Positions 574 through 38,660 of a stretch of DNA of 64,000 nt are shown here, piece after piece. This stretch comes from a phage, in the sequence record PZ445489.1, one strand, 5' to 3'. How positions within the stretch are numbered: the first letter of the stretch is position 1; each line of letters opens with the position of its first letter. Both the position numbers and the translations under genes were made by a program. Below the pieces are notes generated by a model. The model searched no databases. It saw nothing but the letters and a program-made list of their open reading frames with translations, and was not told where the DNA came from.

Positions 574-1059
574 AACAATACTCCTGTATTGGAAATGAAA
601 TAAGTTTTCTTTAGGACTATTCAGAAAGAATAGAACAACTGTTACTGTCAATTTCTCAACAAATTAATCGCAAATACTGAAGGGGGGTGGCAACTTCCCC
701 TTTCACGCTACACTGCCGCTTCACTATACCGCACAAATCCTTGAGGATGGCCGCTAAGCCAGATTTGCTCACCTAATGCTTCATGTACTAGCTCATACTA
801 GATGTAGTATACCTTACGTCATCACTTCTCAGAGTTTTTCACTCTTCCCGTCTCACTTCACAACCACCTCACACTAGGTTGCTTCGAGGCCTTACCAGGG
901 TTCCTACGGGATGTAGATCGCTAAGTATTCTATTAACTATTTGTTTAAAAACTAACACGTAACAGTTAAAACAACCCTTAATGGGGCAGCCTAACTGTTC
1001 CGTATCGCGGATTGTAAACAAGAAAAATTAGCAAAATCAATTTTTACTAATGTCTCTCA

Positions 1060-1112
1060 ATTCAATATAAATATTATATCAAGATTTTGGGCATCATGCA
1101 AGTAAAATTTTC
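1060..1112 (-). promoter_or_regulatory. T5-type sigma70 promoter, minus strand
   Basis: On minus strand: TTGCAT (1096-1101), 17-nt spacer, TATAAT (1073-1078), conserved leader. Confidence 0.5.
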
Positions 1113-1139
1113 CGGATGGTGCTATCATTGGTCTTGAGT

Positions 1140-1172
1140 ACGGATAAAACCGAGCCAAAATGACTCGGTTAT
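1140..1172 (-). terminator. hairpin terminator downstream of 1178..1375
   Basis: Minus-strand hairpin aaccgagtcattttggctcggtt followed by T-rich run. Confidence 0.4.
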
Positions 1173-1177
1173 GTGGA

Positions 1178-4464: not shown

Positions 4465-6339
4465 TTACTTAGCTCGAATATCCTGATGCTTCACTCTACC
4501 CATCACCTCGTGCTGTTTGCCAGGGTTAAATGGACGAGCACCCGGATTTCCAAGATACCCACAAACTCGACGAGTTACTTCAAGAGTTTCGGGGTCATGA
4601 TTACCACAGATAGGACACTTAAACCCATCTTCGGATGCTATTGTTTCACCTAAGAATCCGCATTTACCGCAAGAATCCACTGGAGTATTAATACCGAAGT
4701 AATGAACTTTACTAGCAGCATAATTAATAACCCATTCCAGTGCATCTGGGAATCGTTTCATATCCGGTAGTTCTACATAGGAAATGCACCCACCAGAAGC
4801 AATAGGCGTAAAGTTAGATTCATAATCAAATTTCACGTTAGGAGCAACTTTACGCTCTACATCAAGGTGGTGCGAGTTAGTGTAGTATCCTTTAGACAGA
4901 ATATCTTCATGCTCTGGGAAATATTCACGGTCTAAACGGCAAAACCTATCACATAGGGACTCTGACGGTGTAGCATACAGGCTATAACCTAACTTAGTCT
5001 CTTCCTTCTTCTGATCGACTCTATCTCGCATGTACTGCAATACACGCTGAACAAACTTGATGCAGGTCTCTGACATTGTGTCTACATCTTTGCCAAACAT
5101 GAACTGTAGCATTTCATGGCAACCAATATACCCTAGAGATACAGAAGCACGGTTATAGAAATGATCGAATACATATTCATCAGGCTCCAAGCGTAACCCA
5201 AAGGCTCCTGACATATAGAGGATGGGTGCAGCTTTAGCTTGGATGTATTTTAAGCGATCAACTCTCCACTCCAATGCTTTTAACGCTGTATCCACACGTA
5301 GCTCAAGCAAATCAAAGAATAGATCAATATTTCCTTCAGCTTCGATAGCAATTCTAGGCAAGTTTACAGAAACAACACCTAAGTTATTACGGCCAGCAGT
5401 TTCACCATCTTCTGCAGCAGCTAGGAATGAACGGCAGCCCATAGAAACTTTATAGTCTCCAGTAACTTCTACAACCTTGTCATAGCTGATATAATCTGGA
5501 TACATACGTTCAGCAGTACATTTCATAGCTAACTTCTTGATGTCATAATTAACATCTCCTGGTTTCATATTTACGCCATCGCGAAGTACAAATACCAGTT
5601 TCGGGAAGATAGCTGTACGTTTATTGATACCTAAACCATCCATGCGTACTTTCAGTATTGCTTTCTGTACTAGACGTGCTTCCCAGGAAGTTCCTAGACC
5701 AAAACCAAAGGTAATAAATGGACTCTGACCATTAGAGTTGAACATGGTATTGATTTCATATTCTAAACCCTGACAAGCGTCATAGACTTCTTTTTCAGTC
5801 ATCTCCGTAGCCATTACTGATGCTTTGGCTTCATCCTTAGTCCAACGTTTTGCAAACGCATGATTTTTGTCATAGGATTTACGAACATAAGGGGCTAATA
5901 CTTCATCAAGGCGATCTACAGAAGTACCACCGTACTGATGGGAGCTAACCTGAGTGATAATCTGAGCAGTAATAGCCGCCGCAGTAGTGATAGAGTTTGG
6001 AGTGCTAATTTCAGCATTACCAACCTTCATACCATTCTTCAACATATCTTCCAAAGCTACCAGACAACAGTTAGTCATGCCTAATGCAGCATAATCAGCA
6101 TCGTGGAAATGAATATCCCCAATCATATGAGCATTTCGAATCTGAATAGGCATTTCTTCTAGAATTAGATACTTACTCAATTCACCTGCAAGCATATCCC
6201 TTTGTGTAGGGAAACGTTCTGAGGGTTTATTGGCATTATTAAACAGCAGCTCTTCATCTGCTGACCCTTCGATAATCTCTTTGCAGTTTCTAATTAACGC
6301 CTGCATTTCTTTATACTTTAGTTCTTCATTACGATTCAT
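4465..6339 (-). CDS. nrdD: anaerobic ribonucleoside-triphosphate reductase (class III)
   Basis: 624 aa; C-terminal glycyl-radical motif RVCGYLG and Zn-ribbon CGKCG..CPICG. Confidence 0.9.
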   Translation of the reverse strand: MNRNEELKYKEMQALIRNCKEIIEGSADEELLFNNANKPSERFPTQRDMLAGELSKYLILEEMPIQIRNAHMIGDIHFHDADYAALGMTNCCLVALEDMLKNGMKVGNAEISTPNSITTAAAITAQIITQVSSHQYGGTSVDRLDEVLAPYVRKSYDKNHAFAKRWTKDEAKASVMATEMTEKEVYDACQGLEYEINTMFNSNGQSPFITFGFGLGTSWEARLVQKAILKVRMDGLGINKRTAIFPKLVFVLRDGVNMKPGDVNYDIKKLAMKCTAERMYPDYISYDKVVEVTGDYKVSMGCRSFLAAAEDGETAGRNNLGVVSVNLPRIAIEAEGNIDLFFDLLELRVDTALKALEWRVDRLKYIQAKAAPILYMSGAFGLRLEPDEYVFDHFYNRASVSLGYIGCHEMLQFMFGKDVDTMSETCIKFVQRVLQYMRDRVDQKKEETKLGYSLYATPSESLCDRFCRLDREYFPEHEDILSKGYYTNSHHLDVERKVAPNVKFDYESNFTPIASGGCISYVELPDMKRFPDALEWVINYAASKVHYFGINTPVDSCGKCGFLGETIASEDGFKCPICGNHDPETLEVTRRVCGYLGNPGARPFNPGKQHEVMGRVKHQDIRAK

Positions 6340-18585: not shown

Positions 18586-18756
18586 ATGAAATCAGTTGTA
18601 ATTATTGGTGTTAACACTCGCGGTATTCGTACTACGAAAATTGTTAAAACTTCTAACGTTGCTGAGATCACTACGAACCCTAAAAAGTTTGATTTCGCCA
18701 AAGTCTCAGCAGTTATGACAGAACAATCTTTTAACCAAGCGTTAGGAATGAAATAA
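18586..18756 (+). CDS. hypothetical protein (56 aa)
   Basis: Small ORF with GAGAGGAAG RBS after promoter; below ORF-track cutoff. Confidence 0.4.
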   Translation: MKSVVIIGVNTRGIRTTKIVKTSNVAEITTNPKKFDFAKVSAVMTEQSFNQALGMK

Positions 18757-19199
18757 TGGAAGAGAATATTTTAGATGTTTTGCGTAGAGCTTTGCAGGAT
18801 TCTAAGTTTAATGGTTCTGATAAAGAAGTCGCTAAAAGCTATCAGACCATAATCGGGGATCTTCAGCGTATTAATAAAGATTTCATCACTTCTGAACAAT
18901 TTGTGTCTTATCTCAAAGCTCAACTAAAAAGCATTAACCAGATGAAAGCTAAACTTCATGGTCAAGATCTTGATAGTTATAGCTTGCAGTCCGCTCAGTA
19001 TGAGTACATTCTAAATAAGTGGTTGCAGGAGTATCTGCCCCCTCAGTTATCTGATACTGAGATTCGTAAATACTTTGCAGAATTAGTTAAGCTAAACCCT
19101 GGAATTACAAAAGGTATGCTGATGAAAGCGATTAAGGAAGAATTTCCTGGGCGTTATGATGGTGGTACTGCTGCTCAGATTGCTGGTGAATTTAATTAA
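18756..19199 (+). CDS. GatB/YqeY-domain protein
   Basis: C-terminal EIRKYFAELVKLNPGITKGMLMKAIKEEFPGRYDG resembles YqeY domain. Confidence 0.5.
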   Translation: MEENILDVLRRALQDSKFNGSDKEVAKSYQTIIGDLQRINKDFITSEQFVSYLKAQLKSINQMKAKLHGQDLDSYSLQSAQYEYILNKWLQEYLPPQLSDTEIRKYFAELVKLNPGITKGMLMKAIKEEFPGRYDGGTAAQIAGEFN

Positions 19200-23751: not shown

Positions 23752-23829
23752 GGTTCTCAAGCTCATATGGTATGAGCACCCGGCTCATAACCGGAAGGTA
23801 CGTAGGTTCGAATCCTCGGGGAGCCACCA
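23752..23829 (+). tRNA. tRNA with anticodon CAT (Met, fMet or Ile2 undetermined)
   Basis: Acceptor ggttctc/gggagcc (2 G-U), anticodon loop CTCATAA, T-loop TTCGAAT, CCA; T-stem has 2 mismatches. Confidence 0.55.
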
Positions 23830-26154: not shown

Positions 26155-26256
26155 AATTCTGTGTAGAGTTAAGTAAACCGGTAGCCAACCAGCTATCATT
26201 GCTGACATCGAATTCAGCCACAGATACCATTTTCATTAATAACTGAGGAAACAAGC

Positions 26257-26554: not shown

Positions 26555-26902
26555 ATGATTAATGCTAAAGAAGAATTGTTACTTGCCCTAAAGAATACTA
26601 ATTCTGAAGTTAAGTGTATTAAGATAGAATTCGGTTATTATGGAGACAAAGAAGTTTGGGTATTACCCGTAGGTTATACAGAAAAAGATATTGAAGATTT
26701 TCTAAATAATCTAGACTTTAAATATGATTCTGGTTTCGGTGGACAATTGCTTTATGGTAACGTATGGTTTACTGATGGAACTTGGTTAGAACGTGGTGAA
26801 TATGATGGTTCTGAATGGTGGGAATATAAGACTACACCAGCAATTCCAGAGGAATGCCGAACAATTAATGGTGAAGTAGATCGTACTTTACTATTAAATT
26901 AA
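26555..26902 (+). CDS. hypothetical protein (115 aa)
   Basis: ORF. Confidence 0.5.
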   Translation: MINAKEELLLALKNTNSEVKCIKIEFGYYGDKEVWVLPVGYTEKDIEDFLNNLDFKYDSGFGGQLLYGNVWFTDGTWLERGEYDGSEWWEYKTTPAIPEECRTINGEVDRTLLLN

Positions 26903-27024
26903 CAAAATCTCAGTGCAGAACACGGAGCTAGCAATTCGGAAGTGCTGACTCATGATAAGCTGCCTATGTACTTGCGAAGCGGTCGTGTCCAAGACTCGGA
27001 CTCTTGCACTGAAAACAATCAAAC

Positions 27025-27145
27025 ATTCTAGCGTGGTTGATGGGGAAACCAGCTTGGCTAGGGCAGAAGCTCGTTCGATTCGAGTGAAAGAATGGTTCTC
27101 GTAAGTCCGCACAAGTGATAGCAGGTTCGAGTCCTGTCTAGAATG
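27025..27145 (+). ncRNA. tRNA-like RNA with about 50-nt internal expansion (about 121 nt)
   Basis: Perfect 7-bp acceptor pairing attctag/ctagaat 113 nt apart, canonical T-arm gcagg-TTCGAGT-cctgt, D-arm-like hairpin; no normal anticodon arm. Confidence 0.35.
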
Positions 27146-27334
27146 ACATATTCTGGAGGTTTTGTGAATTACAAAGAATTAGATCTTTTAGCAAATAAAT
27201 TCACAGAGCTATCTGATAACGTTGTATCAAAGGACTCCAACATAGATAATTTTATTACTGAATATCGTGATGGTATAATCTCTAAACAAGAGTTGTTAGA
27301 TAAAACGTATAAATATTTAAAGGGGTTCAGCTAA
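27143..27334 (+). CDS. hypothetical protein (63 aa)
   Basis: ORF; start overlaps end of tRNA-like element; weak RBS. Confidence 0.35.
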   Translation: MTYSGGFVNYKELDLLANKFTELSDNVVSKDSNIDNFITEYRDGIISKQELLDKTYKYLKGFS

Positions 27335-27631
27335 ACGGTTAAGCACTGTCCTACTTCGGACAGAGGGAGTAACACGTAGTCTCCCAAACTCCCCCAAATT
27401 TAGATTTCTGCTTCCTAGAGAACGGACTTCTGAATAAACAAGGCGATGAAGTTTCCGGCCGGTTCTAGTCGCTAAAGTCCCTCTAACGGGGCGTAAGTAA
27501 ATGAAAGTTTACTTATTATGTAGGTTCCGATAGATCGGCGGGTCTATTCTGGCATTTAAGAGAGGTCTCGCAAACTTCTTTGTCAGCCGTGGGGTTGGTA
27601 GCCTCCAGGTGGCCTACACAATAAGTAAATT

Positions 27632-27692
27632 TATTAAAAATTCATTTGCTATTCTGCTATATTATCTGTATAATATATTTTATAAAGTGAAG
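27632..27692 (+). promoter_or_regulatory. T5-type early promoter
   Basis: TTGCTA 27646-27651, 17-nt spacer, TATAAT 27669-27674. Confidence 0.65.
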
Positions 27693-30622: not shown

Positions 30623-30829
30623 ATGGCTGATTTCTGCAAACAATGCTCCATTGATATGTGGGGCAGAGATACTGGTGATCTTTCTGGTTTGATTACAGAA
30701 GCTGAGGTCAAAGAAGGTTATGGTGTAGTTGTGGTTTGCGAAGGGTGCGGAGTTATTCGAGTAGATCATGAAGGCAAACGTTTAGAAGATCCAAAAAGTA
30801 TTAAGAAGAAGGTTAGCCAAGTCGGTTAA
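30623..30829 (+). CDS. Cys-rich small protein (68 aa)
   Basis: CKQCS...CEGCG motifs; 3' end overlaps tRNA-Gln by about 23 nt. Confidence 0.4.
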   Translation: MADFCKQCSIDMWGRDTGDLSGLITEAEVKEGYGVVVVCEGCGVIRVDHEGKRLEDPKSIKKKVSQVG

Positions 30830-30882
30830 GGCTGGGGTCTCTGAAACCCCGATCAGTGGTTCGAACCCACTACCTTCTGCCA
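30807..30882 (+). tRNA. tRNA-Gln (anticodon CTG)
   Basis: Acceptor agaaggt/accttct, perfect anticodon stem ggggt/acccc, loop CTCTGAA, T-arm agtgg-TTCGAAC-ccact, CCA. Confidence 0.7.
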
Positions 30883-30888
30883 AACAGT

Positions 30889-30966
30889 TGGGGATTAGCT
30901 TAGCCTGGTCTAAAGCTTCGGCCTTTGAAGTCGAGATCATTGGTTCAAATCCAATATCCCCTGCCA
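30889..30966 (+). tRNA. tRNA-Gln (anticodon TTG)
   Basis: D-stem gctt/aagc, anticodon loop CTTTGAA, T-arm attgg-TTCAAAT-ccaat, CCA; position 1:72 is U-U. Confidence 0.6.
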
Positions 30967-30974
30967 AACAATAA

Positions 30975-31050
30975 GCGGTTAAGCACACGGGTTGTGTCGC
31001 AGGCCTTCCAAGCCTCGCTGAGTAGGGTTCGATTCCCTCTAGCCGCTCCA
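30975..31050 (+). tRNA. tRNA-Gly (anticodon TCC)
   Basis: Acceptor gcggtta/tagccgc, anticodon loop CTTCCAA, T-loop TTCGATT, CCA. Confidence 0.6.
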
Positions 31051-31066
31051 ACTTTAAGGGAACATT

Positions 31067-31288
31067 ATGCACGTTTTTGAGTTTCGTAATAAAAGTACTG
31101 ATAAACGAGTTATTGTTATTGGGGAAACATACCGAGCATACGAACAAACTGACGGTTCTGTTATCCTGAATGATGAGAAAGGAGGTTTTAGCTTTTATCC
31201 CAAAGAAACTTACGAAGAATTTCGTACAAAGTTTCTTCTACCAGACTGGCTAGAAGTAGCGCAGCAACGAGAACCCGAAGATGGCTGA
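31067..31288 (+). CDS. hypothetical protein (73 aa)
   Basis: ORF. Confidence 0.45.
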   Translation: MHVFEFRNKSTDKRVIVIGETYRAYEQTDGSVILNDEKGGFSFYPKETYEEFRTKFLLPDWLEVAQQREPEDG

Positions 31289-31445
31289 CAACCTAAAAGT
31301 CAAGATCGATAAACAAAAGAAACGTGTAGAAGTAGAGATTGGTGAAGAACGTGTAGCCTTCACCTTTGAATTTCTACAACAAATGGCAATGACAGTTATG
31401 ACTGATAAGTCTCCTGTTATTGAAAAAGAAATCCCGTTGAAATAA
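31281..31445 (+). CDS. hypothetical protein (54 aa)
   Basis: ATGGCTGA overlap with upstream stop; below ORF-track cutoff. Confidence 0.3.
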   Translation: MADNLKVKIDKQKKRVEVEIGEERVAFTFEFLQQMAMTVMTDKSPVIEKEIPLK

Positions 31446-31455
31446 CGGGATCATC

Positions 31456-31530
31456 GCTCCTAAAGCATTGCTGGCGATGCAGTTGCCTTGTAAGCATCTG
31501 AACCGGGTTCGATTCCTGGTGGGAGCACCA
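31456..31530 (+). tRNA. tRNA-Thr (anticodon TGT)
   Basis: Acceptor gctccta/tgggagc, D-stem gcat/atgc, anticodon loop CTTGTAA, T-loop TTCGATT, CCA. Confidence 0.65.
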
Positions 31531-31531
31531 A

Positions 31532-31592
31532 ATTTAAAAATTCATTTGCCTTCTCTCTTATTTCTTGTTATAATATCTATATAAATTAATGA
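31532..31592 (+). promoter_or_regulatory. T5-type early promoter
   Basis: TTGCCT 31546-31551, 17-nt spacer, TATAAT 31569-31574. Confidence 0.65.
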
Positions 31593-31604
31593 GAGGGAAA
31601 CCAA

Positions 31605-31895
31605 ATGAAACGTTATCTTTCTGTAGTATTCCAAACTGGTGGTCAAAGATATACCTATGAATTTCCATCTTCTTGGAAAATCAAAGAAGGTGATCAAGTA
31701 GTAGTGTTAACACCGCGTGAAGGATATAAAGTAGTAACGGTTAAACAAGTATTCCCAAAAGATCATGAACCAGCTAAAGGCATTCGCTATAAGATGATTC
31801 ATGGTGTGGTTCGTCAAGTACCACGAACTGAGGTAGAAGTAGATAAGACTGGAGAAGCTAAATTCCATTATACTTCTTACTTAGACAGTGTATGA
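31605..31895 (+). CDS. hypothetical protein (96 aa)
   Basis: ORF with GAGAGGGAAA RBS. Confidence 0.5.
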   Translation: MKRYLSVVFQTGGQRYTYEFPSSWKIKEGDQVVVLTPREGYKVVTVKQVFPKDHEPAKGIRYKMIHGVVRQVPRTEVEVDKTGEAKFHYTSYLDSV

Positions 31896-31910
31896 TGTAA
31901 ATATTCTAAT

Positions 31911-31987
31911 ACTTCGGTAGCTTAGCGATCTAAAGCACTCGGCTGATAACCGAGAGATCGGGGGTTTAAATCCCTCCCGGAGTACCA
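31911..31987 (+). tRNA. tRNA-Ile (anticodon GAT)
   Basis: Acceptor acttcgg/ccggagt, D-stem gctt/aagc, perfect anticodon stem ctcgg/ccgag, loop CTGATAA, T-loop TTTAAAT (atypical), CCA. Confidence 0.65.
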
Positions 31988-32083
31988 AATCTAGGAATTA
32001 AGACTATGCGTCCAGGAAAGTTTAAAAAAGCTAATTGGTCTAAAGAGTATAAAGAATACTTACTTAGTCTAGTAAAACATAAC

Positions 32084-32159
32084 AGTTAGTTGGCAGAGTG
32101 GTTATGCACCTCCTTCATACGGAGCGACTACAGTGGTTCAAATCCACTACTAACTACCA
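32084..32159 (+). tRNA. tRNA with anticodon CAT (Met, fMet or Ile2 undetermined)
   Basis: Perfect acceptor agttagt/actaact, anticodon loop TTCATAC, T-arm agtgg-TTCAAAT-ccact, CCA. Confidence 0.6.
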
Positions 32160-32196
32160 TTAAAAGAGCTAGAGATAGCTAAATATAGGAGCAATT

Positions 32197-32391
32197 ATGT
32201 TAACAGTTAAAATAATGTCCACTGATGGTGGTGAGCAGATTCATGTTGGTAAAAGCGTAGGGTTTAATCCCAGAAATAAAAGCATAGCTATTTCTGGAAT
32301 AGATCAAGCAATCTTCTTAAAAGAAGATGAAGTAGCATACGTTATGAACCAAACTGGTAAGACAGTTTCTGTATATCGTGGTAAACTATAG
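32197..32391 (+). CDS. hypothetical protein (64 aa)
   Basis: ORF with AGGAG RBS. Confidence 0.4.
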   Translation: MLTVKIMSTDGGEQIHVGKSVGFNPRNKSIAISGIDQAIFLKEDEVAYVMNQTGKTVSVYRGKL

Positions 32392-32433
32392 ACAATAAAG
32401 AGCTGAGCCAAATTCTAACATCAGGGAGATCTA

Positions 32434-32802
32434 ATGAAAGCATATCAAAATCTTAAGTCTGGCGTAATTAACCTTGTTCATGAAAATCAGATTATTCAGC
32501 TATACTCCGACAATGGTGAACTTAAACAGAAAGTTCTAGTTGAAGATCTAGAAGGTATCACACCACAATTCGATCCCGAAGCCTTCCGTGAAGTTAAGGT
32601 GGAAGTCGCCCCTCAAATCGAAGGTGGTCAGCACCTAAATGTCAATGTGTTAAGCCGTGATCAGCTTTTGGATGCGCAGAAACATCCTGAAAAATATCCT
32701 CAGTTGACCATCCGTGTCTCTGGCTACGCTGTTCGATTTAATGCACTGACTCGTGAACAACAGAACGACGTTATTAGTCGTACATTTACTCAGGCGATGT
32801 AA
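32434..32802 (+). CDS. grcA: autonomous glycyl-radical cofactor (GrcA/YfiD-like)
   Basis: C-terminal [34 protein letters not shown] closely matches the E. coli GrcA glycyl-radical region as I recall it. Confidence 0.8.
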
Positions 32803-32883
32803 TGGGGTTTGGATACGATTTCTCCCAGCTACGCAAGGTAGTCGAGCAAACTCCGTTTATCTCCCAAGTTTTAGGAGAAATGT

Positions 32884-33198
32884 GTGGATCGAGCATTAAG
32901 ACGCCATCACCGGCAACGTGTGAAGAACAACCGCAAGAAGTATTGGACAGTCTTCCCACATGAAGAAAGCCCTAAGCGGTTAGGTATTATCACTACTACT
33001 CCTTGCATCTGTTCTTGTTGGATGTGCGGGAACCCTCGCAAATATTATAAGAATAGTAAAGCAGGCATGAAAATTTCGGAGATTAGGAAAATGGAAGCAA
33101 TGATTATGGGCATCTCAAATGATGAATTTGATGGCTTTGTAGGATTCGGAGAAGGAATTAGCTCAGGCTGTTTCGAAGATGAACGCCCCGATCTGTAA
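32884..33198 (+). CDS. hypothetical Cys-containing basic protein (104 aa)
   Basis: ORF. Confidence 0.4.
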   Translation: MDRALRRHHRQRVKNNRKKYWTVFPHEESPKRLGIITTTPCICSCWMCGNPRKYYKNSKAGMKISEIRKMEAMIMGISNDEFDGFVGFGEGISSGCFEDERPDL

Positions 33199-33202
33199 TT
33201 AA

Positions 33203-33243
33203 TAACAAACCCCAGCTATTGAATAAGTAGTCTGGGGTTTTTC
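33203..33243 (+). terminator. rho-independent terminator
   Basis: ccccag...ctgggg stem followed by TTTTTCTG. Confidence 0.55.
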
Positions 33244-33319
33244 TGTATAAAGGTACATAATATATGTATAACAAAATTCATCCACATTAGGTTAATTTAA
33301 AAGACTTAATGGAGGTAAT

Positions 33320-33667
33320 ATGAGCCGTACTTATCGTAAACAATCTGGTGATCAGTGGTGGAAGTCTAAAGAACAATTCTCTCAAGAATATTCTTTCATC
33401 AAAGAAAATGGCTACTGGATTCGTGTTATTTATGCTAAATCCTGGGATGATGTAGAACAGGAAATGAAGGAAGCAACCATTCGTAATGAGAAAAAGGATG
33501 GTTATAACTGGAATTCTATTAGTAAGAATGTTAAGTGGCATTCTAATAAAATGGTTCGTCAAGGGAATCGTCAAGAACTCCACCGCGTGATGAAAGATCC
33601 AGAAAATTATGATTATAATCGCGATCATGACATGCGTAAGCGTGGATTATGGTGGTGCTATGACTAA
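33320..33667 (+). CDS. hypothetical Trp-rich protein (115 aa)
   Basis: ORF with GGAGG RBS. Confidence 0.5.
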   Translation: MSRTYRKQSGDQWWKSKEQFSQEYSFIKENGYWIRVIYAKSWDDVEQEMKEATIRNEKKDGYNWNSISKNVKWHSNKMVRQGNRQELHRVMKDPENYDYNRDHDMRKRGLWWCYD

Positions 33668-33670
33668 ATT

Positions 33671-33731
33671 CTGAAATAATTCATTTGCTAAACCTCTCTT
33701 TTCTTGCTATAATATATTTATAAATTGATGA
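33671..33731 (+). promoter_or_regulatory. T5-type early promoter
   Basis: TTGCTA 33685-33690, 17-nt spacer, TATAAT 33708-33713. Confidence 0.65.
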
Positions 33732-33743
33732 GAGAGGTTTGAA

Positions 33744-34025
33744 ATGAAAACTCGTCTAGACTGTGCTGTTCATGTTCTTGAACATGATGTTGTGGGAACC
33801 TGTATGTCTTATCACGAAGCAGGTCGTTTAATTAAAGAACGTGTGGCAGATGTGTGCGGATTGAAGATTACTGCTGAGGAAGCTGATGATCTTTTAGGTC
33901 AAGCACTAGAGAAAACCGAAATGTTTCTCTGCGATTCTTGTTCTTGGTGGTGTGAAGCTCACGAACGTTCTTTCAACGATTATGATGTATGTCGTGATTG
34001 TAGTGGGGAGGATGAAGATGAATAA
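33744..34025 (+). CDS. Cys-rich acidic protein (93 aa)
   Basis: CDSCSWWCEAHE..CRDCSG motifs. Confidence 0.5.
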   Translation: MKTRLDCAVHVLEHDVVGTCMSYHEAGRLIKERVADVCGLKITAEEADDLLGQALEKTEMFLCDSCSWWCEAHERSFNDYDVCRDCSGEDEDE

Positions 34026-34317
34026 GTTTATTATTGCACTGATGATCTCCACAGTTAGTTTCGGTTCTCTGGCATCTATCAAAGTTTCTATGAAAAATGG
34101 TAATGTTAAAGTCCAACAGAACGGCATTATTACCGAGTATGGTAAAGTTCGTGATGTTAAGGAACGTAATGGTAAAGTAGAAATATATACTAATAAAAAC
34201 TTCTCTACTCCAGCCGTTACTATTAGCAAACGCGGTGAAATAACCACTCAACGTACTAATAGCTCCAGTTCTTTTACTTGTCGTTATGATTGCGACTTTG
34301 AAGGTGAAGATGAATAA
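34018..34317 (+). CDS. secreted small protein (99 aa)
   Basis: Signal-peptide-like MNKFIIALMISTVSFGSLAS; ATG overlaps upstream stop. Confidence 0.45.
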   Translation: MNKFIIALMISTVSFGSLASIKVSMKNGNVKVQQNGIITEYGKVRDVKERNGKVEIYTNKNFSTPAVTISKRGEITTQRTNSSSSFTCRYDCDFEGEDE

Positions 34318-34729
34318 TTTAGACCCTAGAATTAAATTTGCAATTACAGAAATCCAAGATCAAATTGATGAGGATTTCACTGTTTGGTCAAGATCTGGTA
34401 ATGGAGAATATTGCCAGCTTTATAGCATGAAAATGGGTATCTCAATTGATCTTAATATCAACTCTGAAGGTAGAGTGGAAGCCCAACCCATGTTCAGTGT
34501 TCCAGGCTTCTCTGGATTTGTTGCAGGTATAAAATTGTGTCTACCAAATAACCATCTTCATCGAGTTATTTGTCAGCTAGAGACTATTAAGCATTTCTTG
34601 CCAGAAGGTAACATTAATGACTACTACCATGAAGTTGTAGCAGCTCATATGATGAAAGAATGCAAACGTAGGAGAGAAGAACGTGAAAAAGCTAAACATC
34701 AACAGCACGGTGCAGATTCCAGCAACTAA
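34310..34729 (+). CDS. hypothetical protein (139 aa)
   Basis: ATG overlapping upstream stop. Confidence 0.45.
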   Translation: MNNLDPRIKFAITEIQDQIDEDFTVWSRSGNGEYCQLYSMKMGISIDLNINSEGRVEAQPMFSVPGFSGFVAGIKLCLPNNHLHRVICQLETIKHFLPEGNINDYYHEVVAAHMMKECKRRREEREKAKHQQHGADSSN

Positions 34730-34979
34730 GGATGTTTTAACATTCCTACGTAGTGAGAATACCCAGTTTTGGCATGACTATATTCAGGAAAATAAAAATA
34801 ATCCAGATGTAGTTGCCTTTGCCAAAAAACGTATCGAAGAATATAAAGATCCAGAGATTAAAGATGGGATGATCACTATGCAGCTGTGGGTAGCTATGAA
34901 TACGTTTGGACCTGCTATGAGTCTAGGGGTTATTCCACTGTTTACTAATATTCTAATTAATGAAAAGGATCTGAAATGA
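34683..34979 (+). CDS. hypothetical protein (98 aa)
   Basis: ORF. Confidence 0.45.
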   Translation: MKKLNINSTVQIPATKDVLTFLRSENTQFWHDYIQENKNNPDVVAFAKKRIEEYKDPEIKDGMITMQLWVAMNTFGPAMSLGVIPLFTNILINEKDLK

Positions 34980-35260
34980 TTATCTCTCCATTTGCTCTTT
35001 GGTTCGTCATTGGATCTATAGTAGCTATTTACAGCTTGGTTGATGATCTGTATATTTCTAAGAATAAAGATGTAATATTATACGTTATACATAAAACTCG
35101 ACCGTTAGATCTGCCTCCTCTTGATGATAAAACATTACTCAGATGTGCTAGATCTATGATATTTATTGTGGATATTCTTCTAGGCCCAACATCTGTGTTT
35201 TTCTTTTATAGAAAGACTCGTAATATGAAAAAATTTAAAGCTGAAATGCAGAATACCTAA
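34976..35260 (+). CDS. small membrane protein (94 aa)
   Basis: Hydrophobic N-terminus; ATGA overlap with upstream gene. Confidence 0.45.
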   Translation: MIISPFALWFVIGSIVAIYSLVDDLYISKNKDVILYVIHKTRPLDLPPLDDKTLLRCARSMIFIVDILLGPTSVFFFYRKTRNMKKFKAEMQNT

Positions 35261-35370
35261 AGAACTCGCGTAGGACCGAGTTGCGTCACCTGCAACTGTT
35301 ACGGATAAGGGAGTCGTGCCCCTTAGTGCGGTAAGTGGTGAGTTGGTCGCTGACCTTAACTGGAGATTAT

Positions 35371-35715
35371 ATGACTATAATACTAATTCTTGTTACCACT
35401 TGGTTTTTAATTGGCGCTGGGTATGCAGTAGCTATACTTAGACACTTAGATGAATATTCTGCTGAATGGTTCATTAAACACCTTCGTATAGACAACAAGG
35501 AGCACGAGTTTGAAAACGAAAAACAAAGAAAAGCAGTTGAAGAAATGACAGGCGAAGAATGCTTGTTCTATATGCGTGCAATAGGATTCTTAGGGTTATT
35601 TAGTGCTGGCCCACTAGGTTTTACCATAGCTCCTTATAAAGAAACAGTAGACGATATTAAGTTATGGAGAAATGCAGGGGTACTACGCAAAGCTAGAGAA
35701 ACTAATATTACATAA
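35371..35715 (+). CDS. membrane protein (114 aa)
   Basis: ATG after GGAG RBS; two hydrophobic segments. Confidence 0.45.
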   Translation: MTIILILVTTWFLIGAGYAVAILRHLDEYSAEWFIKHLRIDNKEHEFENEKQRKAVEEMTGEECLFYMRAIGFLGLFSAGPLGFTIAPYKETVDDIKLWRNAGVLRKARETNIT

Positions 35716-35754
35716 GATTGACACTAAGTCAACTTACTAGCAAAAGCAAATAAT

Positions 35755-35795
35755 GACAAAGCCCAGCACGCACTTTTGCGACTGGGCTATTTTTA
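35755..35795 (+). terminator. rho-independent terminator
   Basis: gcccag...ctgggc stem followed by TATTTTTAT. Confidence 0.55.
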
Positions 35796-35856
35796 TAATA
35801 AAATTTTAGTTGCTTAGATGCCCAAACTTTTGTATAATATGTTTATAGATTGAGGC
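35796..35856 (+). promoter_or_regulatory. T5-type early promoter
   Basis: TTGCTT 35810-35815, 17-nt spacer, TATAAT 35833-35838. Confidence 0.65.
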
Positions 35857-35869
35857 AAGAGGATTAAAT

Positions 35870-36568
35870 ATGAGGATTATTTCTAAGTTCGCCGATGTGT
35901 ATGATTTGCAGAACAGTTTGTTCGACCCCGATCGTGTTTGGGAGCGTAAAACTGAAGAGCTACTGGTTAAGGTAACTGATGATGCAGAAAAGAACATTGT
36001 GCATACTCGCCAAGTATTTCGGGATGGTTCACTATCTTTCCGTGGCGACTTCGAATACTTTGTAAACCCACTGTTTGTTGCAGGTGAAGTTTACTGGTTA
36101 CACGAGCTGTACTGCTGGCATCCAGCATTTAGCTTCAAAACGTTTAATCTCGACACTATGTTTGATAAAATGGAAGAGATGGGATTACATGCTCGCTCTT
36201 ACTTAATGGATAAGAGTCGTGGAGATGTTCGTGAAACAATGCGTGATCTGCTCGCTGAAGCAAAACCTAAAGCAGAACGTATCTTATCCGAACTGCGTGT
36301 ACCAATTGCATATGTGAAAGGTATTAAAAAGAACGATAACGATGATGTTCGTAACTTCGTAATTCAGACTAACATTCGTTTCCATCAGTCCGGTATTCCG
36401 TGGCAGGAAATTGAAAGTAACTTATACCGTTTACACCAAGTTCTCGAACAGTATATCTTCGGTGTACTAGGAACTGGTGAGCCTGATATGATTAAAGTAT
36501 CAGATAAAGACAGGTTAGCAGCGCATGGATTTGATACAAAAACTTCTTTCAGGAATATGGCACGGTAA
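35870..36568 (+). CDS. hypothetical protein (232 aa)
   Basis: ORF with GAGGATT RBS and host-like codon usage. Confidence 0.55.
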   Translation: MRIISKFADVYDLQNSLFDPDRVWERKTEELLVKVTDDAEKNIVHTRQVFRDGSLSFRGDFEYFVNPLFVAGEVYWLHELYCWHPAFSFKTFNLDTMFDKMEEMGLHARSYLMDKSRGDVRETMRDLLAEAKPKAERILSELRVPIAYVKGIKKNDNDDVRNFVIQTNIRFHQSGIPWQEIESNLYRLHQVLEQYIFGVLGTGEPDMIKVSDKDRLAAHGFDTKTSFRNMAR

Positions 36569-36974
36569 GTGGTGTATCCTGGGAGCAGGTCTAGCGATAG
36601 GCATCGGGTTCGGTGCTTATCACTTAGTAGATAAAGTGGAGACTTTAGCGGGTGATCTTGCGGTAGCTACTAAAAAGATCTCTTCTCTAGAAACTTCCTT
36701 GAATAATGTAAAAGTTGAGAGTGAACGTCGTGAGACACGCATGAATCAATATTTTACACTGAATAATGTATCTCAAGCAGATCTAGACAAAAAGATTAAG
36801 CAGCTAGATAAAGCTCTTAGTCGCCAAGATGTTATCGCTGCAAAGCCTGGATTGGTAACATTAATTGCTAAAAAGCAGAATAAAGAGTTCGAGGAAAGAT
36901 TAGCGTGTTTAACTGGAAACTTGGAGTACTGCTCGCAGCCACAATCACAATCACAGGCTGTGCAGAAGAAATAA
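36525..36974 (+). CDS. membrane-anchored coiled-coil protein (149 aa)
   Basis: N-terminal hydrophobic segment then heptad-like region. Confidence 0.45.
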   Translation: MDLIQKLLSGIWHGKWCILGAGLAIGIGFGAYHLVDKVETLAGDLAVATKKISSLETSLNNVKVESERRETRMNQYFTLNNVSQADLDKKIKQLDKALSRQDVIAAKPGLVTLIAKKQNKEFEERLACLTGNLEYCSQPQSQSQAVQKK

Positions 36975-37258
36975 AACCAGAGCCATCTCATGAGTTAAAG
37001 CAAGCTCATGTAGACTGGCCTAAAGGACTTCAACCTTGTAGCTTTGACTTTAAGTTTGAAAAGAAATTAGCTACAAATGGAGAAGATGGCGTAGTAGTTG
37101 TTGTACCGTATAAAGATTGGAATGCAAAAGCAAAATGTGAGGAAGCAGTTTACTCTTACATTTCACGACTGACTGGTATGGTTTGCTTCTATCGCCAAGA
37201 TTTACAAGAAAAACGTTGCTTAGTTTACTATCCACCAATTAACAATAGGAAAGATTAA
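36905..37258 (+). CDS. putative lipoprotein (117 aa)
   Basis: Signal peptide with lipobox-like ITGC; GTG start. Confidence 0.45.
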   Translation: MFNWKLGVLLAATITITGCAEEIKPEPSHELKQAHVDWPKGLQPCSFDFKFEKKLATNGEDGVVVVVPYKDWNAKAKCEEAVYSYISRLTGMVCFYRQDLQEKRCLVYYPPINNRKD

Positions 37259-38010
37259 TGTCAGTATTAGTCGGTTTACATGGTGAAGCTGGTTCGGGAA
37301 AAGATACCGTTGCAAAATTAATTATCGATTGGTGTAATGACACGTATCCAACGTGTTTATCCCGTCGTTATAGTTTTGCTAAGCCCGTTTATGAACTTGC
37401 ATCCGTAATCCTCGGTGTAACTCCAGAGTTTTTAGGAGAGCGCAGGGGAAAAGAGATTGACCAATGGTTTACGGTCACACAATCTCAATTGGAGCGAGCC
37501 AGAGATGTGTGGTTTAAGTACGGTATCGATAAGTTTGAAGACTTCTCGTACGTTTGGCCTATTTTTGAGGAAAAATATCTTAATCCTCAACAACTTATCT
37601 CAGAGAATAAAGAAGACGGACTTTATAGTTTATTTAGTTCTCCGAGAAAAATGTTACAGCTCATAGGGACAGAGCTAGGAAGGCAGCTGGTGCATGAACG
37701 CATTTGGCTCATAATTCTGGAGCAATCCATCGCTAAAGACGACCCAGACGTCGCCGTAATAACAGATGTTAGATTCCCCAATGAAGGAGAGTTACTCAGA
37801 GAAACAAACCATTTAGATATGGATTCTTTGATAGTAAATGTAGTACCCGCTGAGCAGAAGTTCACTATTAAATCAGATCATCCATCTGAAAGTGGTATTC
37901 CTGCAAAATATATTACTCACGAATTAGTTAATAAATTCGATGGTATCAATAACCTTAAACTAGAAGTTTATAACTTCTGTGACTTAGAGCTAGAACCACT
38001 AGTTGGATAA
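37258..38010 (+). CDS. dnk: deoxynucleoside monophosphate kinase-like P-loop protein
   Basis: P-loop GEAGSGKDT near N-terminus; 250 aa matches the T5 dNMP kinase size as I recall it. Confidence 0.6.
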   Translation: MSVLVGLHGEAGSGKDTVAKLIIDWCNDTYPTCLSRRYSFAKPVYELASVILGVTPEFLGERRGKEIDQWFTVTQSQLERARDVWFKYGIDKFEDFSYVWPIFEEKYLNPQQLISENKEDGLYSLFSSPRKMLQLIGTELGRQLVHERIWLIILEQSIAKDDPDVAVITDVRFPNEGELLRETNHLDMDSLIVNVVPAEQKFTIKSDHPSESGIPAKYITHELVNKFDGINNLKLEVYNFCDLELEPLVG

Positions 38011-38022
38011 TCAAGGATCGCT

Positions 38023-38622
38023 ATGACTAATAAAAAAGAAGAAAAGACTAACCTGTTTCACTCCATTCGCCAATCTAATGAGTATACCTTTTTCTTTGAT
38101 GAAGAATTAGGCCCGCCGGATGAATACCGTGATTTATCAATGGTACTTATGCAAGCAAATGAGGACGACGAAATTAATCTGATGATTAATGGCCCGGGTG
38201 GTTATGTTGATACTGCTGCACAGTTATCTAACTTAATTGCTAATTGCCGTGGAACAGTTATAGGGCATCTGATTGGTCCTAGTGCTTCTGCTTACTGCAC
38301 AATTTTCCTATCTTGCCATGGATGGGTAGTACATCCACATGCTACGCTAATGGGACACACGTTCTCTGGCGGGTTCTGTGAGAAAGGTCAAGAAATCAAG
38401 AAAGCCTATGAATCTTACAACAAGTTTGTAGAAGATATGATGCTAGATGTCTACTATCCGTTCTTCTCAATAGATGAAATCGACGAGATGGTAAAAGACA
38501 ACAAAAATATCTATCTAGATAGCAAGGAAATCCGTAAGCGTATTGAAATCTTGGCAAAATATCGATCTGAGCAATATAATAAAGCCCAGTTACCTCAATC
38601 AGAGGAGCATAACGAAGAGTAA
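38023..38622 (+). CDS. ClpP-like serine peptidase
   Basis: INGPGGYVDTAAQL resembles the ClpP INSPGG motif region. Confidence 0.5.
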   Translation: MTNKKEEKTNLFHSIRQSNEYTFFFDEELGPPDEYRDLSMVLMQANEDDEINLMINGPGGYVDTAAQLSNLIANCRGTVIGHLIGPSASAYCTIFLSCHGWVVHPHATLMGHTFSGGFCEKGQEIKKAYESYNKFVEDMMLDVYYPFFSIDEIDEMVKDNKNIYLDSKEIRKRIEILAKYRSEQYNKAQLPQSEEHNEE

Positions 38623-38624
38623 GT

Positions 38625-38660
38625 AATTTTAAGCCAGGGTTTAACGACCCTGGCTTTTCT
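38625..38660 (+). terminator. rho-independent terminator
   Basis: agccagggt...accctggct stem followed by TTTCTTTTAT. Confidence 0.55.

What the first reader, a model, noticed from the sequence alone, without database searches (positions are those of the whole stretch)
27025..27145. 121-nt tRNA-like RNA with a perfect acceptor stem and T-arm but a roughly 50-nt internal expansion
attctag at 27025-27031 pairs perfectly with ctagaat at 27138-27144, next to a canonical T-arm (gcagg-TTCGAGT-cctgt) and followed by a discriminator base. A D-arm-like hairpin follows the 5' strand. The middle about 55 nt carries a second T-loop-like hairpin instead of a normal anticodon arm; a split anticodon stem gcttg/caagt can be drawn around it. 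It could be an intron-containing or expanded tRNA, or a tRNA-derived stable RNA.
Basis: seen in the sequence. Interest (0 to 1): 0.55.

Follow-up and report, generated by a model that had tools for sequence, protein, structure and literature searches.

The report
Phage T5 tRNA-like "RNA2" gene
This is the long-annotated but still unexplained "RNA2" gene of T5-like phages: a tRNA-shaped RNA whose anticodon loop is replaced by a conserved 55-base module, and the same module turns up in unrelated phages.

Summary
Window 27025-27145 (+) folds as a tRNA cloverleaf: a 7-bp acceptor stem, a D arm, a T arm and a 5-bp "anticodon" stem. That stem carries a 55-nt module instead of a 7-nt loop. It is the orthologue of "rna2 / RNA2, tRNA-like RNA with unknown functions", annotated in T5, BF23 and Salmonella phage 5, so the object itself is already known.

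ARAGORN and Rfam do not call it, and its single-sequence folding energy is unremarkable. Comparison settles the structure. I found about 17 lineages: T5-like genera, T4-like Acinetobacter phages and environmental phage contigs. Every helix covaries, including the split anticodon stem and a new 2-bp helix inside the module.

The module is more conserved than the tRNA frame (67% against 42% pairwise identity). It contains a second true T arm, an invariant D-loop-like AAUGG, and UAA...UCC.

It is not a decoding or intron-containing tRNA. There is no U33/R37 loop, and it lacks the encoded CCA that all 24 real tRNA genes here have.

Best reading: the tRNA frame is a processing and stability scaffold for an effector module. 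What that module acts on is unknown. T5 lacking this region is viable.

The parts
27025..27145 (+). Whole RNA2 orthologue: 121 nt from the first acceptor base to discriminator G27145. By coordinate offset, the homologous GenBank feature (125 nt) corresponds to about 27024-27148, which includes C-1 and ACA.
   Evidence: Covariance model R1 scores it 138.8 bits, against <=37 bits for ordinary tRNAs.
27025..27031 (+). Acceptor stem, 5' strand (AUUCUAG); pairs with 27138-27144.
   Evidence: All 7 pairs show changes on both sides across lineages. Examples: UACGGGG/UCCCGUA in Sugarlandvirus, GACUUUG/CAAAGUC in L071.
27034..27051 (+). D arm: stem 27034-27038 with 27047-27051, loop GAUGGGGA containing the GG.
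   Evidence: All 5 pairs covary. In several environmental lineages it is a canonical UAGCUYA..GGUAGAGC D arm.
27052..27056 (+). "Anticodon" stem, 5' strand (GCUUG); pairs with 27112-27116 (CAAGU).
   Evidence: All 5 pairs covary and 99% of cells are paired.
27057..27111 (+). Conserved 55-nt module that replaces the anticodon loop. In order: J1 27057-27060; P4 27061-27064 with 27105-27108; P5 27066-27067 with 27099-27100; inner T arm; J3; GUAA bulge 27101-27104; J4 27109-27111.
   Evidence: Mean pairwise identity is 0.67, against 0.42 for the frame, over 16 lineages, with 16 invariant columns. P5 covaries and is 97.9% paired. In P4, C27064-G27105 alternates with U-A.
27070..27084 (+). Inner T arm: stem CUCG/CGAG with loop UUCGAUU at 27074-27080. 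The G53-U54-U55-C56-R57-A58...C61 pattern is kept.
   Evidence: The stem covaries (CUCG/CGAG, ACGG/CCGU, AUGG/CCAU, CCCG/CGGG, UUGG/CCAA). The loop varies only as tRNA T loops do (UUCRAUU, UUCGACU, UUCAAAU).
27091..27095 (+). Invariant AAUGG in single-stranded J3. It matches the consensus tRNA D-loop sequence and is the proposed partner of the inner T loop. The alternative is that UGG pairs with CCG at 27107-27109.
   Evidence: Invariant in all lineages. The alternative helix was proposed by RNAalifold and counted. The tertiary role is inference.
27112..27116 (+). "Anticodon" stem, 3' strand (CAAGU).
27121..27137 (+). Outer T arm: GCAGG-UUCGAGU-CCUGU.
   Evidence: 4 of 5 pairs covary.
27138..27144 (+). 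Acceptor stem, 3' strand (CUAGAAU). It is followed by discriminator G27145 and then ACA, not CCA.

Best explanation
This is the rna2 gene of a T5-like phage. It is a non-decoding RNA built on a tRNA frame.

How it is made. It lies in the phage tRNA cluster and is most likely transcribed as part of a polycistronic tRNA/small-ORF transcript. This is inferred: no promoter- or terminator-like site flanks it beyond chance.

Role of the frame. The acceptor stem, D arm and T arm are shown by covariation. I infer that they make the RNA a substrate for the host tRNA-maturation machinery, with RNase P cutting at A27025 and 3' trimming near G27145. I also infer that they give it tRNA-like stability. This is the same logic as the engineered "tRNA scaffold" used to express recombinant RNAs.

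Role of the module. The functional part is the 55-nt module that replaces the anticodon loop. It lengthens the anticodon arm through helices P4 and P5 to a second genuine T arm. The invariant D-loop-like AAUGG strand probably caps that T loop, so the tip that would carry an anticodon instead looks like a second tRNA elbow, possibly with a small pseudoknot (inferred).

What it does. The module's sequence is held nearly constant while the frame drifts, in phages of very different hosts. I therefore think it binds a widely conserved tRNA-recognising partner as a mimic or decoy. That partner could be a tRNA-binding enzyme, a ribosome-associated factor or a tRNA-targeting defence nuclease. It does not act in decoding. 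The identity of the partner is not shown.
For: Identity:
- The region is 95-99.5% identical to T5-like genomes.
- The homologous stretch is annotated rna2/RNA2, "tRNA-like RNA with unknown functions", in AJ604531, AJ604530, AY692264 and AY543070.

Structure:
- Every helix covaries.
- RNAalifold independently recovers the five main helices.

Not a decoding tRNA:
- ARAGORN and Rfam give no call.
- All 24 real tRNA genes here are followed by CCA; RNA2 is followed by ACA.
- The residual loop lacks U33/R37, and its pseudo-anticodon is inconsistent between lineages.

The module is the constrained part:
- Identity is 0.67 for the module against 0.42 for the frame, with 16 invariant columns.
- The same module sits in quite different frames. 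Some have a canonical D arm. Some have a G3.U70/A73 acceptor (L075, L084). In T4-like Acinetobacter phages the D stem is missing and the acceptor is weak or absent.
- In Acinetobacter phage 133 the element starts 5 nt after one tRNA, and only 4 nt separate its T arm from the next tRNA. Neighbour processing can release it there without an acceptor stem. This fits a scaffold role for the frame.

Family boundary:
- The covariance model gives 60-141 bits to family members and <=37 bits to ordinary tRNAs.

No local promoter or terminator.
Against: - No expression, end-mapping or binding data could be examined here. The literature held says nothing about RNA2 function.
- The T5Mos strain lacks 30661-38625, which spans rna2 at about 32.96-33.09 kb. 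It still grows on E. coli without PARIS (PMC11464382). Any role is therefore conditional.
- The T-loop/AAUGG contact involves only invariant bases, so covariation cannot test it.
- Two inner foldings remain undecided: P4, or a UGG/CCG helix forming a pseudoknot with P5.
- No protein gene is consistently adjacent across lineages.
- A few copies do carry CCA (KKP_3711, SIY1lw, GlastoCabaret) or G3.U70 (L075, L084). Aminoacylation in some lineages is not excluded.
Confidence: 0.6

Rival explanations
1. It is an intron-containing or otherwise expanded tRNA that becomes a decoding tRNA after the insert is removed. This was one of the first reader's options.
For: The frame is a good cloverleaf. After in-silico deletion of 27061-27108, ARAGORN accepts 9 of 24 family members as tRNAs. 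Exactly 4+3 nt are left between the stem strands.
Against: - The residual loop (GCUAGCA here) has C33 and C37 instead of U33 and R37, and the pseudo-anticodon varies (GAG, UAG, UAA, UUG, AGA).
- The window already encodes tRNAs for all 20 amino acids.
- The insert is 55 nt with no intron or ribozyme match in Rfam. Bacteria are only known to have group I tRNA introns of >200 nt (established knowledge).
- The insert, not the frame, is the conserved part.
- There is no encoded CCA.
Confidence: 0.04
2. It is a degenerate pseudo-tRNA, for example a relic of a partial T-arm duplication, with no function of its own. At most it acts as an RNase P "punctuation" site separating the flanking small-ORF mRNAs.
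For: - There are two T arms.
- In KKP_3711 and SIY1lw the first 70 nt are even called tRNA-Arg(CCG) by ARAGORN, using the inner T arm. This suggests an origin by duplication.
- The region is dispensable in T5Mos.
- It sits between two small ORFs.
Against: - A relic would not keep 16 invariant unpaired or paired module positions and compensatory changes in P4 and P5 across Demerecviridae, Straboviridae and environmental phages.
- Punctuation needs only the frame, yet the frame is the less conserved part. It is partly lost in the Acinetobacter phages while the module is kept.
Confidence: 0.12
3. It is an aminoacylated, tmRNA-like or otherwise charged tRNA mimic that acts on the ribosome or in an aminoacyl-transfer reaction.
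For: - L075 and L084 have a GGGGCG... acceptor with G3.U70 and A73, the alanine identity set that tmRNA shares (identity rule from established knowledge).
- Some copies encode CCA.
- The module has an invariant AUG and UAA.
Against: - The window copy has A1-U72, U2-A71, U3-A70 and ACA instead of CCA.
- The Acinetobacter copies lack a usable acceptor stem.
- AUG and UAA are out of frame in most lineages: 7 nt apart in the T5 type, and 6 or 9 nt only in four lineages (reading).
- ARAGORN finds no tmRNA.
Confidence: 0.07
4. The stretch is protein-coding, or it is a cis-acting leader of the downstream ORF rather than a separate RNA.
For: - Mechanical ORFs overlap it: 26952-27104 (+), 50 aa, and 26894-27112 (-), 72 aa.
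- The downstream ORF starts at 27143/27164.
- One genome annotates a hypothetical protein on the opposite strand.
Against: - Substitutions are compensatory in stems, and indels of 1-4 nt occur in J3.
- The downstream neighbour differs between phages: an ORF here, tRNA-Gly in BF23, RNAIV in T5.
- Acceptor and stem sequences change completely between lineages while staying paired.
Confidence: 0.02

Closest known systems
rna2 / RNA2 of phages T5, BF23 and Salmonella phage 5 (GenBank AY543070, AY692264, AJ604530, AJ604531)
   Same: Same gene. Sequence identity is 95-100%, and it holds the same position after tRNA-Asp and ORF trn 2.10. It is annotated as a 125-nt "tRNA-like RNA with unknown functions".
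   Different: Nothing material. Those records give no structure, no family and no function.
Phage T4 species 1 and species 2 stable RNAs (rnaC, rnaD)
   Same: They are stable RNAs of unknown function encoded inside a phage tRNA cluster. The 3' 92 nt of rnaC also pair an acceptor-like stem around a non-tRNA interior next to a T arm.
   Different: They are not homologous. Model R1 matches only the acceptor and T arm of rnaC (18 bits) and nothing in rnaD. The module is absent.
Engineered tRNA scaffold for recombinant RNA expression (anticodon arm replaced by a cargo RNA; recalled from memory: Ponchon and Dardel 2007)
   Same: Same architecture: an intact acceptor, D and T frame, with the cargo grafted on the anticodon stem. 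The frame provides processing and stability.
   Different: That is an artificial design. Here the arrangement is natural and the cargo is a conserved phage module. The analogy is functional and was not tested.
tmRNA
   Same: A tRNA-like acceptor and T-arm domain joined to a non-tRNA functional domain. The D-stem-less Acinetobacter copies and the G3.U70 acceptor of L075/L084 recall its tRNA-like domain.
   Different: There is no ARAGORN tmRNA call, no tag reading frame and no pseudoknot series. The window copy has no G3.U70, and the insert sits on a normal anticodon stem.
Bacterial Y RNA YrlA (tRNA-mimicking Ro-binding RNA; recalled from memory)
   Same: A non-coding RNA with a tRNA-like T-arm/D-arm domain. 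Some are encoded by phages.
   Different: The topology is opposite: in YrlA the RNA ends lie in the Ro-binding stem and the acceptor-like stem is closed by a loop. There is no Rfam match even at E<=10.

Membership tests
T5-group RNA2 (rna2) gene | Sequence homology and synteny with the annotated rna2 feature | tested here: met
   95-99.5% identity over 1 kb. The feature maps to about 27024-27148.
Canonical decoding tRNA | Cloverleaf with acceptor, D, anticodon and T stems | tested here: met
   All four stems are present and covary.
Canonical decoding tRNA | 7-nt anticodon loop with U33 and a purine at position 37 | tested here: not met
   The loop is replaced by 55 nt. The residual flanks GCUA+GCA give C33 and C37, and they vary between lineages.
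Canonical decoding tRNA | Recognised by tRNA finders or the Rfam tRNA model | tested here: not met
   No call by ARAGORN. No RF00005 hit at the gathering score or at E<=10.
Canonical decoding tRNA | Encoded 3' CCA, as in every tRNA gene of this genome | tested here: not met
   All 24 tRNA genes are followed by CCA; RNA2 has ACA.
Intron-containing bacterial tRNA (group I intron) | Group I intron core of hundreds of nt in the anticodon loop | tested here: not met
   The insert is 55 nt, and no Rfam intron or ribozyme family matches at E<=10.
tmRNA | tmRNA architecture with a tag reading frame; G3.U70 | tested here: not met
   ARAGORN reports no tmRNA. The window acceptor is A-U, U-A, U-A. AUG and UAA are out of frame in most lineages.
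YrlA / bacterial Y RNA | Match to the Rfam models; Ro-binding stem formed by the RNA ends | tested here: not met
   No Rfam match. The ends form an acceptor stem instead.
T4 rnaC / rnaD | Homology of the non-tRNA interior | tested here: not met
   R1 with filters off matches only the acceptor and T arm of rnaC, at 18 bits.
Stable, processed RNA (RNase P substrate) | Discrete transcript with mature 5' and 3' ends in infected cells | not testable with these tools
   Only the GenBank annotation is available, and no RNA data could be examined.

The most novel reading that the evidence does not exclude
RNA2 is the founding member of a class of phage RNAs that has not been described as a family and that crosses phage families: Demerecviridae, T4-like Acinetobacter phages and several environmental phage lineages. 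In this class a tRNA body is only a processing and stability scaffold. The conserved module of about 50 nt, a second T-loop "elbow" or pseudoknot at the anticodon position, is an RNA effector. It would bind a universal bacterial tRNA-recognising factor or a tRNA-targeting immune nuclease, making it an RNA-based anti-defence or translation-control device.
Probability: 0.2. Interest if true: 0.8.

Novelty: already known. Interest (0 to 1): 0.45.

Why it matters
The gene has been annotated in GenBank records of T5, BF23 and phage 5 for about two decades as "tRNA-like RNA with unknown functions". No function is given in the records or in the literature I could search.

Phage tRNA clusters are now known to counter tRNA-cleaving defence systems such as PARIS, retron Eco7 and Schlafen nucleases. 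An abundant non-decoding RNA in the same cluster is therefore an obvious untested candidate.

This analysis adds a structure supported by covariation. It shows that the insert, not the tRNA frame, is the conserved part. It also shows that the same module occurs in unrelated phages. Together these define exactly which nucleotides to mutate and which RNA to use as bait.

Tried and rejected
1. Alternative fold: the 5' AUUCU pairing with AGAAU (27090-27094) to give a 70-nt tRNA plus a tail. Rejected because GAAAGAAUGG is conserved whatever the acceptor sequence is.

2. Alternative D-like hairpin CGAG/CUCG (27081-27084 with 27098-27101). It works only in the T5 type; the partners do not covary elsewhere (reading).

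3. Recent origin of the frame from one T5 tRNA. The best match is tRNA-Trp at 0.68 identity, inside the tRNA-versus-tRNA background (maximum 0.70).

4. Homology with T4 rnaC/rnaD. None beyond the generic acceptor and T arm. A 10-nt identity (UCGAUUCGAG) with the 5' end of rnaC falls in a different structural context.

5. Rfam, on the whole region and on the module alone, at E<=10. Only noise or nothing.

6. A conserved neighbouring protein. An all-against-all BLASTP of ORFs around 12 family members found none. The only exception is a YqeY-like ORF next to the L071 copy, with a YqeY-like ORF about 8 kb upstream in the window. YqeY-like genes are widespread in tRNA-rich phages and were not found in the Acinetobacter phages, so this is only a weak lead.

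7. A mini-ORF reading of AUG...UAA. The frame is not conserved.

8. Literature searches for RNA2 function. Nothing was found in the held library, and the T5 genome paper is not held.

9. Pattern hits in bacterial genomes. 8 of 9 were chance or coding matches. The one true hit lies on a 167-kb contig that shares proteins with the T4-like Acinetobacter phages.

Full report
**What the window is**

The window carries a cluster of 24 tRNA genes (ARAGORN 23, Rfam 24). The 1 kb around the finding is 99.5% identical to Escherichia phage vB_EcoD-Elw and 95% identical to Salmonella phage 5. About 400 T5-like genomes match it. This is the tRNA region of a T5-like phage (Tequintavirus).

**Checking the observation**

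| Element | Sequence | Coordinates |
|---|---|---|
| Acceptor stem | AUUCUAG / CUAGAAU | 27025-27031 / 27138-27144 |
| Discriminator | G | 27145 |
| D arm | UGGUU-GAUGGGGA-AACCA | 27034-27051 |
| Split stem | GCUUG / CAAGU | 27052-27056 / 27112-27116 |
| Internal hairpin | CUCG-UUCGAUU-CGAG | 27070-27084 |
| T arm | GCAGG-UUCGAGU-CCUGU | 27121-27137 |

Taken alone, the sequence is not convincing:
- The MFE structure is the cloverleaf, but its energy is ordinary (z = -0.41).
- Neither ARAGORN nor Rfam calls it, even at E<=10.

**It is a known gene**

The records of phage 5 (AJ604531), BF23 (AJ604530) and T5 (AY692264, AY543070) annotate the homologous 125 nt as rna2/RNA2, "tRNA-like RNA with unknown functions". 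The feature lies after tRNA-Asp and ORF trn 2.10. By coordinate offset it corresponds to about 27024-27148 in the window.

The same records annotate three other nearby RNAs: RNA3 (tRNA-like), RNAIV and RNA 2H (stable RNAs).

**A wider family**

BLASTN with the 141-nt region found 483 phage records. Besides T5-like genera, the internal part matched two Acinetobacter phages at 84-85% identity:
- phage 133, a T4-like member of Straboviridae;
- AB2I3.

Pattern scans built on the conserved core added more members:
- Acj9;
- a 167-kb contig that shares proteins with the T4-like Acinetobacter phages;
- a copy inside a 47-tRNA array on a 1.46-Mb metagenome contig;
- copies on contigs of 247, 164, 51, 46, 20 and 12 kb.

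In total there are about 17 distinct lineages.

A covariance model built from 26 sequences separates the family from ordinary tRNAs. Family members score 60-141 bits. Ordinary tRNAs match only the frame and score <=37 bits.

**Structure**

On alignments of 33 and 24 members, 92-95% of cells pair, against 63-74% in shuffles. Between 25 and 27 pairs have changes on both sides, and no shuffle out of 500 reaches the observed values. Shifting the partners by 1-3 columns destroys the signal.

Support for each helix:

| Helix | Pairs with changes on both sides |
|---|---|
| Acceptor stem | 7 of 7 |
| D stem | 5 of 5 |
| Long-range "anticodon" stem | 5 of 5 (99% of cells paired) |
| Inner hairpin | 3 of 4 |
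| Outer T arm | 4 of 5 |

RNAalifold recovers the same five helices on its own.

Inside the insert I found two further helices:
- **P5.** G27066-C27100 and A27067-U27099. It is 97.9% paired, with pair types GC/UA/AU and AU/UA/GU/CG/GC.
- **P4.** 27061-27064 with 27105-27108. Its inner pair alternates between C-G and U-A in closely related sequences, but it is U.U in four lineages.

An alternative inner helix is equally compatible with the data. In it, UGG (27093-27095) pairs with CCG (27107-27109) and forms a pseudoknot with P5.

**The insert is the conserved part**

Over 16 lineages, mean pairwise identity is 0.67 in the module and 0.42 in the frame. It is 0.37 in the frame if the outer T loop is left out.

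The invariant positions are:
- the GG of P4;
- the T-loop bases of the inner hairpin;
- AAUGG (27091-27095);
- UAA (27102-27104);
- UCC (27106-27108);
- A27111.

The inner hairpin keeps the full tRNA T-arm signature: a closing G-C pair and loop UUCRAUU. AAUGG matches the consensus tRNA D-loop sequence (seen in the Rfam tRNA consensus printed). I therefore propose that AAUGG caps the inner T loop like a second tRNA elbow. This is inference, because all the bases involved are invariant.

**The frame varies freely**

- In some lineages it is canonical: U8, UAGCUYA..GGUAGAGC.
- In the T5 group it is non-canonical: C8 and a 5-bp D stem.
- In L075 and L084 the acceptor carries G3.U70 and A73.
- In the T4-like Acinetobacter phages the D stem is gone and the acceptor stem is weak or absent.

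In phage 133 the element starts 5 nt after tRNA-Gly, and only 4 nt separate its T arm from tRNA-Cys. There, processing of the neighbouring tRNAs can release it. This is what one expects if the frame serves processing and stability while the module is the effector.

**It is not a decoding tRNA**

- All 24 tRNA genes of the window are followed by CCA. RNA2 is followed by ACA. CCA occurs in only a few family members.
- Deleting the module in silico leaves a 7-nt loop without U33 or R37.
- ARAGORN then accepts only 9 of 24 frames, and it assigns them inconsistent anticodons.
- The insert has no Rfam match, and at 55 nt it is far too small for a group I intron.
- AUG and UAA in the module are not in a conserved frame.

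**Context and dispensability**

No promoter- or terminator-like site flanks the gene beyond chance. The next promoter-like site, at 27646-27674, matches the annotated promoter P13a. RNA2 is therefore most likely cut out of a polycistronic transcript.

The published T5Mos strain lacks 30661-38625, which includes rna2, and it still grows on E. coli lacking PARIS (PMC11464382). RNA2 is thus dispensable under laboratory conditions.

No neighbouring protein is shared across lineages. One lead exists: a YqeY-like ORF directly upstream of the L071 copy, and a YqeY-like ORF at window 18756-19199. It is weak, because such genes are common in tRNA-rich phages and were not found in the Acinetobacter phages.

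**Comparison with known systems**

- The object is the known RNA2 gene.
- T4 rnaC and rnaD play an analogous positional role but are not homologous.
- tmRNA, YrlA and intron-bearing tRNAs each fail defining tests.
- The closest functional analogy is the artificial tRNA scaffold.

**Verdict**

New here are three things: the covariation-supported structure, the recognition that the insert is the constrained part, and its presence in unrelated phages. The function remains open. My preferred reading is a tRNA-scaffolded mimic or decoy RNA.

Noticed in passing
window 26158-26224 (+): A second tRNA-like RNA lies directly after tRNA-Asn. It has acceptor-like UCUGUG/CACAGA, a 6-bp stem with a 6-nt loop (GGUAGC-CAACCA-GCUAUC) and a T-arm-like GCUGA-CAUCGAAU-UCAGC. 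Folding z-score is -2.9. It corresponds to the annotated "RNA3, tRNA-like RNA with unknown functions". ARAGORN and Rfam do not call it.
   Followed up: partly
window 26903-27024 (+): An unannotated 120-nt spacer between ORF trn 2.10 and RNA2. It has a long closing stem (CAGUGCAAG... / ...CUUGCACUG, about 26910-26918 with 27005-27013). Folding z-score is only -1.2. It is conserved in the T5 group, but in Epseptimavirus and in KKP_3711/SIY1lw a tRNA-Lys precedes the element instead.
   Followed up: partly
window about 27517-27619 (+): By coordinate offset, the homologue of the annotated "RNAIV, stable RNA with unknown functions" lies here, just upstream of the promoter-like site at 27646-27674 (P13a). 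The sequence looks strongly structured.
   Followed up: no
window 23752-23826 (+): A tRNA found by Rfam (40.3 bits) but missed by ARAGORN. It is probably the tRNA-Gly that completes the set of 20 amino acids.
   Followed up: no
window 18756-19199 (+); L071 3005-3508 (+): YqeY-like (GatB C-terminal-like, tRNA-binding) ORFs. The L071 ORF (PF09424, 59 bits) ends about 200 nt upstream of its RNA2-like gene. The window ORF scores 25.4 bits, just under the cut-off, and is conserved in about 450 T5-like genomes. It is often annotated "tRNA amidotransferase".
   Followed up: partly
L050 1-8283 (contig Ga0308158_10000004, 1.46 Mb): 47 tRNA genes are packed into 8.3 kb, with the RNA2-like element (6023-6138) embedded among them. 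This is an unusually dense tRNA array on a very large contig.
   Followed up: no
L046 7053-7127 (-); L013 5451-5523 (-): tRNAs with a CUA anticodon (amber-suppressor type, labelled tRNA-Pyl by ARAGORN). In L046 this tRNA lies immediately upstream of the RNA2-like element. Acj9 has one in the same cluster.
   Followed up: no
L005 601-670, L006 603-672; L008 587-715 (-): Public annotations mislabel the element. Its first 70 nt are called tRNA-Arg(CCG) in Enterobacter phage KKP_3711; ARAGORN makes the same call there and in SIY1lw. In Klebsiella phage Boggle_ER46 a hypothetical protein is annotated on the opposite strand.
   Followed up: yes
L010 about 1084-1175 (+); L013, downstream of the element: A class II tRNA-Ser(GCU)-like sequence (GGAAAGU...GCUUUCCGCCA) directly follows the element in Acinetobacter phage AB2I3, and a similar GGAAAGU start follows it in Acj9. 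ARAGORN does not call it.
   Followed up: no
L075 about 982-1021 (-) and L084 about 5899-5938 (+): The 40 nt upstream of the two G3.U70-type copies are nearly identical (aagcccacttacagccg.gaggttg.atcgtgggaa). This may be another conserved element or the end of a shared gene.
   Followed up: no
L038 1410-1501 (-) (phage T4 rnaC): The 3' 92 nt of T4 species 1 RNA pair CGGAACG with CGUUUCG as an acceptor-like stem next to a perfect T arm, with a 54-nt non-tRNA interior. The layout is analogous to RNA2, without sequence homology.
   Followed up: partly
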